Positions 719 to 4,970 of a stretch of DNA of 64,000 nucleotides are shown one piece after another. The notes beneath the pieces are model-generated. The model was given only the letters and a program-made list of their open reading frames with translations. It was not told the DNA's origin and searched no databases. The position numbers and the translations under genes were made by a program. Numbering within the stretch: the first letter of the stretch is position 1; each line of letters starts with the position of its first letter. Where the stretch lies: NCBI RefSeq assembly GCF_055900595.2, contig NZ_CM148325.1. The stretch is one strand, 5' to 3'.

Positions 719-970
719 ATGTTCCGTTGTCCCCTGTGCGGTGCATCCGCACGTATCCGCACCAGTCGCAATGAAAATGATTCAGGCACAGTTCGCCTGA
801 AGTACTACCAGTGCAATAACCTCGAATGCGGGATCGGCTTTACCACACTGGAGGGTTTTAACAAATTCACATCAAAACGCGCCCCGTCGCCGCAGGGTAC
901 AGAGCGGATACCGTGGGAAGATTTTCCGGGATCTCACAGGGGGAATGCTCAGATGAATCTTGATATTTAA
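719..970 (+). CDS. ogr: Ogr/Delta-family zinc-finger late transcription activator (P2-like phage)
   Basis: 83 aa, Cys4 motif C-x2-C-x24-C-x4-C (CPLC...CNNLEC), AAGGAG RBS 7 nt upstream of ATG, position immediately after gpD. Confidence 0.8.
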   Translation: MFRCPLCGASARIRTSRNENDSGTVRLKYYQCNNLECGIGFTTLEGFNKFTSKRAPSPQGTERIPWEDFPGSHRGNAQMNLDI

Positions 971-980
971 GAACAATAAT

Positions 981-1114
981 CAGGTTGAGAGGACATCATA
1001 AGGCAAGTAGATTAACGGCAGATACTTTCCCGCAACCACGGGCAAGTATTTAATTATCCATGATGAAATATGACCTAAATTGTTTTTTGCCCGCCGGAAA
1101 GCGGGCATTTTTTT
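981..1114 (+). repeat. Partial copy (U0) of a repeated unit, ending in terminator hairpin T0; candidate phage attR / 3' end of an sRNA-like gene
   Basis: Shares ggttgag, agtagattaac, attatccatgat and the terminator with the units at 1626-1783 and 1828-1987. Confidence 0.5.
1088..1114 (+). terminator. Intrinsic terminator-like hairpin T0 (tgcccgc-cggaaa-gcgggca + T7)
   Basis: 7-bp GC stem, 6-nt loop, 7 consecutive T; identical to T1. Confidence 0.7.
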
Positions 1115-1328
1115 ATTCTTTTGTGGTTATGGGGTCATCAGGAACCACGTGCAGATTATATTTTTGTTTTTTTGGCGTTCCTCCGGCAGCAACGAGTTCA
1201 TCAATAAGACACTGACACGCCTGAACATCCCGGGCATGTCTTAGTTTCACCTTTATTGATTTAACCTTATCCTCACCGGAGGAGAAATGCAGTTCAATCT
1301 CAATATCGTTTCTTCGGAACAATCTCAT
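1113..1328 (-). CDS. Hypothetical small protein (71 aa), orphan ORF between repeat copies
   Basis: ORF with G-rich RBS-like tract (caggggggcgt) directly upstream of ATG; no family recognised; stop codon abuts T0. Confidence 0.35.
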   Translation of the reverse strand: MRLFRRNDIEIELHFSSGEDKVKSIKVKLRHARDVQACQCLIDELVAAGGTPKKQKYNLHVVPDDPITTKE

Positions 1329-1554
1329 ACGCCCCCCTGAACATATCAGAAATGCTAGTATCGAAAAATGAGAAAACAGTTAGACAGGAGAAACATATTA
1401 ACACAAATCATTTATACCTATAGATGAAATTATAATTTCATTCATGAATATGATAGATAACTATATTGTGAACAAAATGAAAAATGGCTAAATTAAAAAT
1501 GGGCATGGAGGAATGCCTCGTAATCAGTAATACATGATCCATACTTCCTTGTTT

Positions 1555-1581
1555 TGCCCGCCGGAAAGCGGGCATTTTTTT
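1555..1581 (+). terminator. Intrinsic terminator-like hairpin T1 (identical to T0)
   Basis: Same stem-loop and T7 run as T0; preceded by conserved catgat motif. Confidence 0.7.
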
Positions 1582-1625
1582 GGCGGTTACCATCGCCTCA
1601 CCTTCCTGGTTCACACAAAGCAACC

Positions 1626-1783
1626 CTGATTTTCCATGAAAACTTCAGGGTTGAGCCAAAAGCACAAAGACAGTAGATTAACCAAGGGTACCCGCCACCT
1701 GCCAACAGGAACGGTATCCAGTACGTATTAATGACTGACAATTCACATTGCTGTTTTGCCCGCCAGAAGGTGGGCATTTTTTT
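1626..1783 (+). repeat. Repeat unit A (about 158 bp) ending in terminator T2; candidate sRNA-like gene copy
   Basis: About 85 percent identical to unit B over the first 75 nt; ends in hairpin gcccgcc-agaa-ggtgggc (one G.U pair) + T7 at 1757-1783. Confidence 0.55.
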
Positions 1784-1827
1784 GGCAGTTATCATGGACG
1801 CACCTTCATGACACATATTAAGCAGAC

Positions 1828-1987
1828 CTGATTTTTCCATGAAAAATTCATGGTTGAGACAAAAGCACAAAAACAGTAGATTAACCACGGGTGCCTGCCA
1901 CCTGACAACAGGAAGGGGTGTCCATTATCCATGATATACAAACGAAAAGTCTTGTCTTTTGCCCGCCGTTGCGCGGGCTTTTTTTTT
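1828..1987 (+). repeat. Repeat unit B (about 160 bp) ending in terminator T3; candidate sRNA-like gene copy
   Basis: Homologous to unit A and to U0; ends in hairpin gcccgc-cgttgc-gcgggc + T9 at 1961-1987. Confidence 0.55.
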
Positions 1988-2016
1988 GCCACCCTCACCA
2001 GTGAGGGTACCATCAT

Positions 2017-2238
2017 TCAGAGGCGCGTAAGCCACCCGGCGTTAACATCCTGCCCGTCAACCCTGACCGCAGAGTCTGAACGGCAGGCACCGGAAGCAGT
2101 ACCAAAAACACCTCTGACAAGTTCCGCCACCTTCCCGATATCATCAGGCGCCACATTCCTCACCTCGACAGCGATCCGTGGCGTACCATCATCGTTAACA
2201 AGCGTGGCTTTAAGGCTGGTACGACGGGCAAATAACAT
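2017..2238 (-). CDS. Hypothetical protein (73 aa, MLFARRTSLKATLVNDDGTPRIAVEV...)
   Basis: ORF with GGAGG-type Shine-Dalgarno (gggaggggg) 8 nt upstream of ATG, balanced amino-acid composition; family not recognised. Confidence 0.4.
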   Translation of the reverse strand: MLFARRTSLKATLVNDDGTPRIAVEVRNVAPDDIGKVAELVRGVFGTASGACRSDSAVRVDGQDVNAGWLTRL

Positions 2239-2294
2239 CAACACCCCCTCCCTTCGGTTCGTTGCACTGGCAGCACGATACCACCAGGAAAAAG

Positions 2295-2329
2295 AAAAGC
2301 CCACAACGTCAGGATTGCGGGCTTTTTTT
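2295..2329 (+). terminator. Hairpin T4 with A-tract upstream and T7 downstream (bidirectional terminator-like)
   Basis: aaaagccc...gggcttttttt about 70 bp upstream of copA -35. Confidence 0.5.
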
Positions 2330-2394
2330 CTTCAAAAATGGACACTACGTGGACACTGATTAAATAATCCTTTCTTAATCAGACTGTTAAAATG

Positions 2395-2431
2395 CTTGAC
2401 CTTCCCCTTGCTGGAAGGTTTAACCTTTAAC
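2395..2431 (+). promoter_or_regulatory. copA promoter with CueR (MerR-family) operator dyad ccttcc-N7-ggaagg between -35 and -10
   Basis: Sequence cttgaccttccccttgctggaaggtttaacc recognised as the copA/CueR box; AAGGAG RBS at 2454-2459. Confidence 0.85.
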
Positions 2432-2465: not shown

Positions 2466-4970
2466 ATGTCACAAACTATCGACCTGACCCTGGACGGCCT
2501 GTCCTGCGGTCACTGCGTTAAACGCGTGAAAGAAAGTCTCGAACAGCGCCCGGATGTTGAGCAGGCGGATGTGTCTATCACTGAAGCGCACGTTACCGGT
2601 ACTGCCAGTGCAGAACAGCTGATCGAAACCATCAAACAAGCGGGTTATGACGCATCTGTAAGCCACCCAAAGGCTAAACCGCTGGCGGAGTCATCAATCC
2701 CGTCGGAAGCACTGACAGCGGTTTCTGAGGCGCTTCCGGCAGCAAACGCCGATGACGATGACAGTCAGCAGTTGCTGCTGAGCGGCATGAGCTGCGCCAG
2801 CTGTGTTACCCGCGTACAAAATGCGCTGCAAAGCGTACCGGGCGTCACTCAGGCACGGGTAAACCTGGCGGAGCGTACTGCGCTGGTGATGGGCAGTGCC
2901 TCCCCACAAGATTTAGTGCAGGCAGTGGAAAAAGCGGGCTACGGCGCGGAAGCGATTGAAGATGACGCTAAACGCCGCGAGCGCCAGCAGGAAACCGCCG
3001 TCGCTACCATGAAGCGCTTCCGCTGGCAGGCAATTGTCGCTCTGGCGGTAGGTATCCCGGTGATGGTCTGGGGGATGATCGGCGATAACATGATGGTCAC
3101 CGCCGACAACCGCAGTCTGTGGTTAGTTATCGGCCTGATAACGCTGGCGGTAATGGTTTTCGCCGGCGGGCATTTTTACCGTAGCGCATGGAAAAGCCTG
3201 CTGAACGGTGCGGCGACAATGGATACGCTGGTGGCGCTGGGTACTGGCGTGGCGTGGCTCTATTCAATGAGCGTCAACCTGTGGCCGCAGTGGTTCCCGA
3301 TGGAAGCGCGACATCTTTATTACGAAGCCAGTGCGATGATTATCGGTCTGATTAATCTCGGTCATATGCTGGAAGCGCGCGCACGTCAGCGTTCTTCAAA
3401 GGCGCTGGAGAAATTACTCGATTTAACCCCGCCGACGGCGCGCCTGGTCACTGACGAAGGTGAAAAAAGCGTGCCGCTGGCAGATGTTCAGCCTGGTATG
3501 TTACTACGCCTGACGACCGGCGATCGCGTACCGGTAGATGGTGAAATTACCCAGGGCGAAGCGTGGCTGGATGAAGCAATGCTGACGGGCGAACCTATTC
3601 CGCAGCAAAAAGGCGAAGGCGATAGCGTTCATGCAGGTACCGTGGTGCAGGACGGTAGCGTGCTGTTTCGTGCCAGTGCGGTTGGCAGCCATACTACGCT
3701 GTCACGGATCATTCGTATGGTGCGCCAGGCCCAGAGCAGTAAACCGGAAATCGGCCAGTTGGCGGATAAAATCTCTGCCGTATTTGTGCCGGTAGTGGTG
3801 GTGATTGCGCTGGTCAGTGCGGCAATCTGGTACTTCTTTGGTCCGGCACCGCAAATTGTTTATACCCTGGTGATTGCCACTACGGTACTGATTATCGCCT
3901 GCCCGTGTGCGCTGGGGCTGGCAACGCCAATGTCGATTATTTCCGGCGTCGGGCGTGCGGCTGAATTTGGCGTGCTGGTGCGGGACGCCGACGCGCTGCA
4001 GCGCGCCAGTACGCTCGACACCGTAGTGTTCGATAAAACCGGGACGCTGACCGAAGGGAAGCCGCAGGTTGTCGCAGTAAAAACATTTGCTGATGTTGAT
4101 GAAGCGCAAGCATTGCGTCTGGCGGCGGCACTGGAACAAGGTTCCAGCCATCCGCTGGCACGGGCGATCCTCGATAAAGCAGGCGATATGCAGCTGCCGC
4201 AGGTCAACAGCTTCCGTACATTGCGTGGGCTGGGCGTGAGCGGTGAAGCAGAAGGTCATGCGTTATTGCTGGGTAATCAGGCGTTGTTAAATGACCAGCA
4301 AGTCGATACTAAAGCGATTGAAGCAGATATTTCAGCCCAGGCATCGCAAGGGGCAACGCCTGTGCTGCTGGCGGTTGACGGGAAAGCGGTGGCCTTGCTG
4401 GCGGTGCGCGATCCGTTGCGTAACGATAGTGTGGCGGCACTGCAACGTCTGCATAAAGCGGGATATCGTCTGGTGATGCTAACCGGGGATAACCCGACCA
4501 CCGCCAATGCGATCGCCAAAGAAGCAGGGATTGATGAGGTGATAGCCGGCGTGCTGCCAGACGGTAAAGCCGAAGCGATCAAACGTCTGCAAAGTGAAGG
4601 ACGTCAGGTGGCAATGGTGGGCGACGGCATTAACGACGCGCCAGCGCTGGCTCAGGCGGATGTCGGTATTGCTATGGGTGGCGGCAGCGATGTTGCCATT
4701 GAAACCGCGGCGATTACCCTGATGCGCCATAGCCTGATGGGTGTTGCGGATGCGCTCGCAATTTCCCGCGCAACGCTGCGCAACATGAAGCAGAACCTGC
4801 TCGGTGCGTTTATCTACAACAGCATTGGTATTCCGGTCGCCGCCGGTATTTTGTGGCCGTTCACGGGAACACTGCTTAACCCGGTGGTTGCCGGAGCGGC
4901 AATGGCGCTCTCGTCGATTACCGTAGTGAGTAACGCCAACCGGTTGCTGCGGTTTAAACCGAAGGAATAA
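2466..4970 (+). CDS. copA: Cu(I)-translocating P-type ATPase
   Basis: 834 aa; two N-terminal GxxCxxC metal-binding domains, CPC motif, DKTGT phosphorylation site. Confidence 0.97.

What the first reader, a model, noticed from the sequence alone, without database searches (positions are those of the whole stretch)
2017..2238. Unrecognised 73-aa ORF with strong Shine-Dalgarno, bracketed by two + strand terminators just upstream of copA
The minus-strand ORF has a GGGAGGGGG tract 8 nt before ATG and a plausible, non-repetitive amino-acid composition. It lies between terminator T3 and hairpin T4, so any + strand transcript reading out of the repeat array would be antisense to it and stop before the copA promoter. 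I cannot assign a family.
Basis: seen in the sequence. Interest (0 to 1): 0.45.

Follow-up and report, generated by a model that had tools for sequence, protein, structure and literature searches.

The report
Orphan small ORF at prophage end
The 73-codon reading frame is real and has an unusually strong ribosome-binding site, but it is a lineage-restricted orphan ORF at the end of a P2-like prophage sitting in the E. coli copA promoter, and it shows no sign of selection on its protein sequence, so it is an ordinary and possibly decaying piece of phage cargo.

Summary
A minus-strand ORF (2238→2017, 73 aa) has a GGGAGGGGG Shine-Dalgarno, the strongest of 1,639 candidate starts in the window. It lies between hairpins T3 and T4, upstream of copA.

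Everything left of 2395 is the right end of a roughly 35-kb P2-family (P88/Xuanwuvirus-like) prophage. Its att core is the copA promoter −35 plus half the CueR operator.

The ORF is already in RefSeq as the hypothetical protein WP_029400554.1. It occurs in 28 of 5,426 complete E. coli genomes, in two prophage lineages (copA site and serS site). No homologue was found in Pfam, PHROGs, NCBIfam, PADLOC, PDB, phage or plasmid collections, or 1.84 billion protein representatives.

Between the two lineages ω is 0.6–0.8, the same as the five non-coding frames; gpD gives 0.056. Frameshift alleles circulate. No conserved promoter exists. T4 is a stronger terminator on the ORF's own strand, directly upstream of it.

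Best reading: a translatable orphan cargo ORF that is weakly selected or decaying and probably poorly expressed in the lysogen. A fast-evolving functional moron remains possible. Interest is low.

The parts
2017..2238 (-). ORF73: 73-aa orphan ORF (ATG 2238-2236, TGA 2019-2017). It equals RefSeq WP_029400554.1 'hypothetical protein'.
   Evidence: Only E. coli clusters were found. NG86 omega is 0.6-0.8.
2244..2252 (-). Shine-Dalgarno GGGAGGGGG. The GGAGG core lies 8 nt from the ATG. It is retained (GGGAGGGG) in the serS-site lineage.
   Evidence: Duplex energy is -12.5 kcal/mol, the strongest of 1,639 candidate starts.
2283..2333 (-). T4: bidirectional terminator hairpin. It is stronger on the minus strand, where the U-tract TTTTCTTTTTCC follows the stem. 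It lies upstream of ORF73 on the ORF's strand.
   Evidence: makes a minus-strand call. One search gives -22.8/-19.7 kcal/mol (minus) against -18.9/-12.4 (plus) in the two lineages. The substitutions are wobble-compatible on the minus strand only.
2275..2283 (-). TGGTATCGT, an extended -10-like element and the only promoter candidate between T4 and the ATG. It is not conserved: the serS lineage has TGGTGTCGT.
   Evidence: Read from the sequence. The consensus scan finds no minus-strand promoter here.
2104..2108 (-). T5 homopolymer (codons 44-45) where natural frameshift alleles arise. They replace the C-terminal 28 residues with the -1 frame.
   Evidence: P0004 and P0036-P0039.
1992..2007 (.). 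Perfect 16-bp palindrome CCCTCACCAGTGAGGG, 9 nt after the stop codon. It is identical in both lineages.
1961..1987 (+). T3: + strand intrinsic terminator of the fourth repeat unit. It has no U tail on the minus strand. It is also the breakpoint of homology with sibling prophages.
1986..2013 (+). Promoter-like TTGCCA-16-TACCAT (TTGTCA-16-CATCAT in the serS lineage). It could drive a roughly 310-nt RNA antisense to ORF73 that would end at T4.
   Evidence: and the L003 sequence. This is a consensus match only.
1958..2367 (.). The 410-bp module (T3, ORF73, T4 and the Int arm sites) shared at about 90% identity with prophages integrated at serS/dmsA.
2339..2356 (.). Two direct TGGACAC repeats, read as arm-type binding sites of the P2-like integrase. 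Similar repeats lie at attL inside the 3' end of int.
   Evidence: The assignment as arm sites rests on established knowledge of P2 Int (TGTGGACA repeats) and was not tested here.
2377..2389 (.). IHF-like site AATCAGACTGTTA, with one mismatch to WATCAANNNNTTR, between the arm sites and the core.
   Evidence: Read from the sequence. This is an inference.
2395..2414 (.). att core CTTGACCTTCCCCTTGCTGG, duplicated at attL. It equals the copA promoter -35 plus the left half of the CueR operator. Host DNA starts here.

Best explanation
ORF73 is an orphan cargo ORF in the variable region between ogr and attP of a P2-family (P88/Xuanwuvirus-like) prophage. The prophage integrated into the copA promoter.

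Shown:
- The ORF lies about 155 bp inside the prophage's right end.
- It travels as a 410-bp module (T3, ORF, T4, Int arm sites) in two prophage lineages whose integrases are only 51% identical.
- It carries a genuine, very strong translation-initiation region.

Inferred:
- The ORF is, or recently was, a translatable gene for a small soluble protein, probably beta-beta-alpha in residues 7-45 with an unstructured tail.
- It is not currently held by purifying selection on its amino-acid sequence.
- It is poorly transcribed in the lysogen. A minus-strand intrinsic terminator (T4) sits 44 nt upstream of the ATG, and no conserved promoter lies in between.

It is therefore best read as weakly selected or decaying accessory DNA. 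The elements at this locus that are most likely to be functional are the flanking terminators and the attP arm. T4 insulates the prophage end from transcription crossing the att junction in either direction. That includes + strand read-out towards the regenerated copA promoter.
For: - Prophage context and att core. Host homology starts at 2395.
- Narrow distribution: 28 of 5,426 complete E. coli genomes, four protein clusters that are all E. coli, one identical IMG/VR contig, and nothing in the phage or plasmid collections.
- The exhaustive HMMER search of 1.84 billion representatives gave only those clusters plus spurious summed hits to repeat proteins.
- The SD is the strongest in the window.
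- Coding potential is intermediate: below 95% of true in-frame windows and above 99% of off-frame windows.
- Divergence between lineages: 17 substitutions spread 7/5/5 over codon positions; dN 0.071-0.077, dS 0.095-0.116, omega 0.6-0.8. The other five frames give 0.5-2.1. gpD from the same pair of prophages gives omega 0.056 at the same dS.
- Omega has a 95% CI of 0.27-3.0. An omega of 0.1 or less is rejected (p = 3e-5). Fisher's test against gpD gives p = 0.002.
- Divergence is 7.7% in the ORF against 11.5% in the flanks, which is not significant.
- Frameshift alleles occur at the T5 run in at least 20 contigs, including complete genomes.
- PGAP annotates the ORF only in the copA lineage.
- No minus-strand promoter is found upstream. 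T4 is stronger on the minus strand.
- The AlphaFold2 model is weak, with mean pLDDT 59.6.
Against: - The exceptional SD and the coding-like base composition (GC by codon position 0.65/0.51/0.53) argue that it is a real gene.
- With only 17 substitutions, moderate constraint (omega about 0.3-0.5) cannot be excluded.
- About 98.7% of roughly 1,650 contigs with a called ORF keep it intact.
- No indel lies inside the ORF between the lineages, while two indel events (4 gap columns) lie in the flanks.
- The copA lineage has a plausible extended -10 (TGGTATCGT) behind T4.
- Expression was not measured.
Confidence: 0.5

Rival explanations
1. ORF73 is a functional, fast-evolving moron protein: a small soluble phage accessory protein, for example one involved in phage-phage or phage-host conflict. 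It would be expressed from the weak extended -10 element behind T4 or by partial read-through. The high omega would reflect diversifying or relaxed selection rather than loss of function.
For: - The SD is the strongest in the window.
- The ORF is intact in both haplotypes and in about 98.7% of contigs.
- Recombinant alleles P0019 and P0033 keep the frame.
- The N-terminal 45 residues are retained even in the frameshift alleles.
- The composition is atypical: GC is about 58% against about 40% in the flanks, as expected for acquired cargo.
- Sibling prophages carry hok/sok and hicAB in the same ogr-attR cargo region.
- The upper confidence limit on omega allows it.
Against: - The ORF frame is not distinguishable from the non-coding frames.
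- No conserved promoter is present, and a terminator lies directly upstream.
- There is no homologue, no confident fold and no defence-system model hit.
- PGAP does not call it in 23 genomes.
Confidence: 0.3
2. The ORF is incidental and the active product is non-coding. A + strand RNA of about 310 nt would start at the promoter-like site at 1986-2013 and end at T4. Alternatively the C-rich, G-poor + strand acts only as an untranslated terminator or insulator zone between the repeat array and the copA promoter.
For: - The promoter-like -35/-10 with a 16-nt spacer is present in both lineages.
- T4 folds as a + strand terminator with a U7 tail.
- GC skew is strongly negative on the + strand, -0.31.
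- It directly follows four tandem units that look like sRNA genes.
Against: - The promoter match is only 9 of 12. Such matches number 6 against 2.7 expected in the region.
- The interior has no unusual RNA structure on the minus strand, the only strand tested without the hairpins: z = -1.0 and +0.26. The whole + strand stretch including T4 gives z = -1.8.
- No Rfam family reaches its threshold.
- This reading does not explain the outstanding SD placed 8 nt from an ATG that opens a 73-codon frame.
Confidence: 0.12
3. ORF73 is the surviving 5' part of a longer gene. The gene would have been truncated when modules were joined at the conserved terminator T3.
For: - The homology breakpoints with sibling prophages fall at T3, at 1958 and 1986.
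- The C-terminal 28 residues are predicted to be unstructured and are replaceable by another frame.
- Both P2 major capsid models give a weak match to residues 43-72, with E about 0.2.
Against: - No longer relative exists in either protein database. All relatives are 59-76 aa.
- The capsid matches are far below significance.
- Two overlapping stop codons (TGAATGA) close two frames at the same place.
Confidence: 0.05

Closest known systems
Phage morons and accessory ORFans of P2-like prophages (for example P2 old, tin and Z/fun; lambda bor and lom)
   Same: It is a small stand-alone ORF in a variable slot between conserved phage modules. Its base composition differs from the flanks, it is bracketed by hairpin terminators, and it is absent from related phages.
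   Different: It has no recognisable promoter of its own, and the terminator lies upstream rather than downstream on its strand. There is no evidence of selection on the protein. The slot (ogr to attP) is not one of the classic P2 moron positions; that last point is from memory.
hicAB type II toxin-antitoxin module carried at the equivalent position (after T3) in the ihfA-site sibling prophage
   Same: It occupies the same place and orientation, directly after terminator T3 and reading towards it. It replaces ORF73 from position 1986 onward.
   Different: BLASTP finds no similarity to HicB (E = 21). ORF73 is a single ORF without a partner gene. The hicAB prophage also has a different att region and lacks T4.
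P2 attP organisation and lambda-type terminators beyond att (sib-like arrangement)
   Same: The T4 hairpin lies just outside the Int arm-type repeats. In the circular phage it is therefore downstream of int across attP, and in the prophage it is separated from int.
   Different: int has its own hairpin before the core, so T4 is not needed to end the int transcript. No RNase III-type retroregulation was tested. This is an analogy only.
Escherichia phage P88 / Xuanwuvirus (Peduoviridae)
   Same: These are the closest sequenced phages to the prophage backbone, with about 76% DNA identity over gpD and ogr.
   Different: Nothing downstream of ogr (window 957-2394) matches any of the 50,697 phage records. 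That stretch includes the repeat array and ORF73.

Membership tests
Protein-coding gene under purifying selection | Excess of synonymous over non-synonymous change (omega well below 1) in the proposed frame but not in other frames | tested here: not met
   Omega is 0.61-0.81 in the ORF frame against 0.51-2.1 in the other five frames. The gpD control gives 0.056. The CI is 0.27-3.0.
Protein-coding gene under purifying selection | Translation-initiation signals: a start codon with a correctly spaced Shine-Dalgarno | tested here: met
   GGAGG lies 8 nt from the ATG. The duplex energy is -12.5 kcal/mol, the strongest of 1,639 candidate starts. It is conserved in the second lineage.
Protein-coding gene under purifying selection | Reading frame kept open in all relatives | tested here: inconclusive
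   Both main haplotypes are intact. Frameshift and truncated alleles (P0003, P0004, P0026, P0036-39) occur in about 1.3% of contigs. Alleles disrupted near the N-terminus would not be found by a protein search.
Phage moron (autonomous accessory transcription unit) | Located in a variable slot, and absent from related phages | tested here: met
   It is replaced by hicAB in the ihfA-site sibling and absent from all sequenced phages.
Phage moron (autonomous accessory transcription unit) | Own promoter upstream and terminator downstream on the coding strand | tested here: not met
   No minus-strand promoter reaches 9 of 12 between copA and the ATG. The only candidate, TGGTATCGT, is not conserved. 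T3 has no U tail on the minus strand, and T4 lies upstream of the ORF.
Phage moron (autonomous accessory transcription unit) | Expression in the lysogen | not testable with these tools
   No transcriptome or ribosome-profiling data are available for a carrier strain.
HicB antitoxin (the occupant of the same slot in a sibling prophage) | Sequence similarity to HicB, with a partner HicA gene | tested here: not met
   BLASTP E = 21. There is no NCBIfam or Pfam hit and no adjacent partner ORF.
Hok/Gef type I toxin (neighbour of the ORF in the serS-site lineage) | A hydrophobic peptide of about 50 aa matching PF01848 | tested here: not met
   Pfam gives no PF01848 hit. The sequence has no hydrophobic segment.
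P2-family major capsid protein fragment (PF05125 / phrog_70) | Significant match to the family profile | tested here: not met
   E = 0.19 (Pfam) and 0.26 (PHROG), over about 25 residues only.
Known structured RNA family (Rfam 15) | Score at or above the family's gathering threshold | tested here: not met
   The best match is Thr_leader at 26.9 bits against a threshold of 55, driven by the T4 hairpin. The ORF interior folds no better than shuffles.
Anti-phage defence system component (PADLOC) | Match to a defence-system protein model | tested here: not met
   No family is found at E <= 1.

The most novel reading that the evidence does not exclude
ORF73 could be a functional, rapidly diversifying small phage protein. 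Its mRNA would be controlled by a fully complementary + strand RNA running from the promoter-like site at 1986-2013 to T4. That would make a new cis-antisense-controlled module, like a type I toxin-antitoxin pair in layout but with a soluble protein. It sits in a cargo region that holds hok/sok and hicAB in sibling prophages. The high omega would then reflect arms-race evolution.
Probability: 0.07. Interest if true: 0.5.

Novelty: new member of a known kind. Interest (0 to 1): 0.15.

Why it matters
The ORF itself matters little. It is one more uncharacterised orphan ORF in prophage cargo DNA, restricted to a rare, mostly poultry-associated E. coli prophage clade, and it has no detectable selection on its protein.

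It does serve as a caution. A perfect Shine-Dalgarno and an open frame are not sufficient evidence of a maintained gene.

The context is more informative than the ORF:
- A P2-family phage uses the CueR-controlled copA promoter as its attachment site and rebuilds that promoter at attR.
- The region between ogr and attP is a modular cargo zone. Its modules are joined at a conserved terminator, and in different lineages it holds sRNA-like units, hok/sok, hicAB or this ORF.

Tried and rejected
- **Family assignment.** PHROGs, NCBIfam, PADLOC, Pfam, a PDB sequence profile and Foldseek on a weak AlphaFold2 model gave nothing significant.
- **Exhaustive HMMER search.** Three hits to very long repeat proteins (FG-GAP-like, PDZ-like and translated repeat DNA) had E values as low as 1e-17. 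These were rejected as summed weak matches over 5-20 repeats.
- **Paralogy with the neighbouring 71-aa ORF (1113-1328).** The two N-termini look similar by eye. BLASTP gives only a non-collinear 21-residue match (E = 0.009), so this was not pursued.
- **Relation to HicB.** None was found.
- **Other frames.** The 142-aa + strand ORF and the 47-aa minus-strand ORF have no family hits.
- **Structured RNA.** The strong z-score of the whole minus-strand stretch (-5.2) comes from the terminal hairpins. The interior gives -1.0 and +0.26.
- **Inverted repeat 1953-1969 / 2221-2237 linking T3 to the ORF start.** It is not conserved in the serS lineage and was treated as chance.
- **Ogr-type late promoter (TGT-N12-ACA) upstream of the ORF.** None was seen by eye.
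- **Other species.** A degenerate DDIGKVAEL pattern scan of 100,044 species genomes gave one chance hit in a TrpE-like gene.
- **Literature.** Searches for a copA-site P2-like prophage or for ogr-proximal small RNAs found nothing relevant.

Full report
**Observation**

The window carries a minus-strand ORF at 2017..2238 (73 aa; ATG 2238-2236, TGA 2019-2017). The tract GGGAGGGGG is the reverse complement of 2244-2252, and its GGAGG core ends 8 nt before the ATG.

The predicted duplex with the 3' end of 16S rRNA is -12.5 kcal/mol. That is the strongest value among all 1,639 candidate start codons of ORFs >=60 aa in the 64-kb window. It is stronger than the best start of any of the 30 ORFs of >=250 aa. 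The pairing of ORF and SD is therefore not a chance feature.

T3 (1961-1978 plus a T9 run) is a + strand intrinsic terminator. T4 (2295-2326) is a real hairpin, and the scan reports it on the minus strand. copA starts at 2466.

**Context**

The window is E. coli. Positions 1-2394 are the right end of a complete P2-family prophage of about 35 kb inserted between glsA and copA. The visible genes are gpD (13-675) and ogr (719-970), with integrase, repressor, replication, head and tail genes further left.

- Homology to ordinary E. coli genomes begins at 2395.
- The 20-bp sequence CTTGACCTTCCCCTTGCTGG occurs at both junctions and once in an empty K-12-like site. It is therefore the att core.
- From established knowledge of the copA promoter, this core covers the -35 element and the left half of the CueR operator. 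Integration regenerates the promoter at attR.
- Two direct TGGACAC repeats at 2339-2356 have counterparts at attL inside the 3' end of int. They look like P2-type Int arm sites; this assignment is from memory and was not tested.

ORF73 therefore lies inside the phage genome, about 155 bp from the core.

The closest sequenced phages are P88 and Xuanwuvirus, at about 76% identity over gpD-ogr only. Nothing after ogr matches any phage record.

**Distribution**

RefSeq already annotates the ORF as hypothetical protein WP_029400554.1.

- The 311-bp segment is present in 28 of 5,426 complete E. coli genomes. Five are at the copA site (>=99.7% identity). Twenty-three are at 92% identity in a sibling prophage between serS and dmsA, where PGAP does not call it.
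- The phage clade as a whole occurs in 30 genomes.
- A third sibling, at ihfA, shares the sequence up to 1986 and then carries hicAB instead.
- The module 1958-2367 (T3, ORF, T4, arm repeats) is about 90% identical between the copA and serS lineages, although their integrases are only 51% identical.
- The word-indexed search of 5.8 billion clusters and the exhaustive HMMER search of 1.84 billion representatives return only four E. coli clusters (about 1,650 contigs). They also return three very long repeat proteins whose scores are sums of many weak repeats.
- IMG/VR has one identical copy.
- The phage and plasmid collections have none.
- A degenerate-pattern scan of 100,044 species genomes gave only a chance hit.
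- No relative is longer than 76 aa, so the 'fragment of a longer gene' idea has no support.

**Is it a maintained gene?**

Evidence in favour:
- The SD is exceptionally strong.
- GC by codon position is 0.65/0.51/0.53.
- The codon-usage score is higher than 99% of off-frame windows, though lower than 95% of true in-frame windows of the same prophage.
- No indel lies inside the ORF between the lineages.

Evidence against:
- The 17 substitutions between lineages fall 7/5/5 on codon positions 1/2/3.
- Nei-Gojobori gives dN 0.071-0.077, dS 0.095-0.116 and omega 0.6-0.8. The five other frames give 0.5-2.1.
- gpD from the same two prophages, at the same dS (0.107), gives omega 0.056.
- The 95% interval for omega is 0.27-3.0. 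Strong constraint (omega <= 0.1) is rejected at p = 3e-5. The contrast with gpD has p = 0.002.
- Divergence in the ORF (7.7%) is not significantly below that of its flanks (11.5%, p = 0.22).
- Frameshift alleles at the T5 run (2104-2108) replace the last 28 residues with another frame. They are found in at least 20 contigs, including complete genomes. A frameshift after residue 58 and a 62-aa truncation also occur.
- AlphaFold2 gives a weak model (mean pLDDT 59.6) with a beta-beta-alpha unit in residues 7-45 at pLDDT of about 70 and a disordered tail. Foldseek and a PDB sequence profile find nothing.

**Expression signals**

T4 is more stable on the minus strand in both lineages: -22.8 and -19.7 kcal/mol against -18.9 and -12.4 on the plus strand. 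The two stem substitutions that distinguish the lineages are G-U-compatible only on the minus strand.

T4 is followed on the minus strand by TTTTCTTTTTCC. It is therefore an intrinsic terminator on the ORF's own strand, ending 44 nt before the ATG.

- The consensus scan finds no minus-strand promoter between copA and the ATG.
- The only candidate is an extended -10-like TGGTATCGT (2283-2275). It is TGGTGTCGT in the serS lineage.
- T3 lacks a U tail on the minus strand.
- On the + strand, a promoter-like TTGCCA-16-TACCAT (1986-2013) is present in both lineages and could give an antisense RNA ending at T4. Such matches are only about twice the shuffled expectation in this region.
- The ORF interior has no unusual RNA structure (z = -1.0 and +0.26).
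- No Rfam family reaches its threshold.

**Conclusion**

The best-supported reading (about 0.5) is a translatable orphan cargo ORF that is no longer, or only weakly, maintained by selection. It is probably poorly transcribed in the lysogen.

The parts of the locus most likely to be functional are the bidirectional terminator T4 and the attP arm. T4 insulates the prophage end from transcription crossing the att junction. In the serS lineage it faces read-through from serS. Here it can also stop + strand read-out before the regenerated copA promoter.

The rivals are:
- a fast-evolving functional moron protein (about 0.3);
- a non-coding role for the + strand (about 0.12);
- a truncated gene (about 0.05).

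None of these readings can be settled without strand-specific transcript and ribosome data from a carrier strain.

**Novelty and interest**

The ORF is a new, uncharacterised member of a familiar class: prophage accessory ORFans. It is already in databases as a hypothetical protein. A specialist would not find it surprising, so interest is low (0.15).

Noticed in passing
window 2395-2414 (attR core); attL copy in L004 3671-3690; empty site in L015 401-420: The P2-family prophage uses CTTGACCTTCCCCTTGCTGG as its attachment core. This is the copA promoter -35 plus the left half of the CueR operator. The promoter is rebuilt at attR, but everything upstream of the -35 is now phage DNA, and glsA and copA are separated by about 35 kb. 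No paper describing this site was found in two searches.
   Followed up: partly
window 975-1990: Four tandem units each have a promoter-like GGTTGAGA-N17-TAGATTAAC, a variable body of about 95 nt, and a conserved terminator TTTTGCCCGCC....GGGCATTTTTTT with stem changes that keep pairing. They look like an array of small-RNA genes. No Rfam family reaches its threshold, and no sequenced phage carries them.
   Followed up: partly
window 1958-1990 (T3); L002 4010-4040; L003 3850-3890 and 4334-4365: Homology breakpoints between sibling prophages fall exactly at copies of the conserved terminator. The terminator therefore seems to act as a linker at which cargo modules (sRNA-like units, hok/sok, hicAB, ORF73) are exchanged.
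   Followed up: partly
L003 2094-2234 and about 4100-4240; L002 4036-4636: The same ogr-to-attR cargo region carries two Hok/Gef type I toxin loci in the serS-site prophage and a hicAB type II module in the ihfA-site prophage. The window's copy has neither.
   Followed up: no
window 1113-1328 (-): The 71-aa ORF after ogr matches PHROG 14142, aligning to only the C-terminal half of that 128-position profile (E = 5e-12). It is 100% identical in DNA between the copA and serS lineages, although the surrounding DNA differs by about 8%. An AT-rich region of about 23% GC lies upstream of it.
   Followed up: partly
window 2339-2368 (+): The best promoter-like match in the region (TGGACA-18-AATAAT, 10 of 12) overlaps the integrase arm repeats. 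It points towards the copA promoter 27 bp downstream.
   Followed up: no
L004 29949-33482; L014 8028-11351: In both prophage lineages RefSeq marks the tail tape-measure gene as incomplete, next to more than 1 kb without annotation. The prophages may be defective, or the gene may be mis-annotated.
   Followed up: no
L004 3760-4773 versus L014 36693-37688: The integrases of the copA-site and serS-site prophages are only 51% identical and use different cores. Both have similar TGGACA-type repeats on each side of att, and they share a P-arm segment that is about 90% identical.
   Followed up: partly
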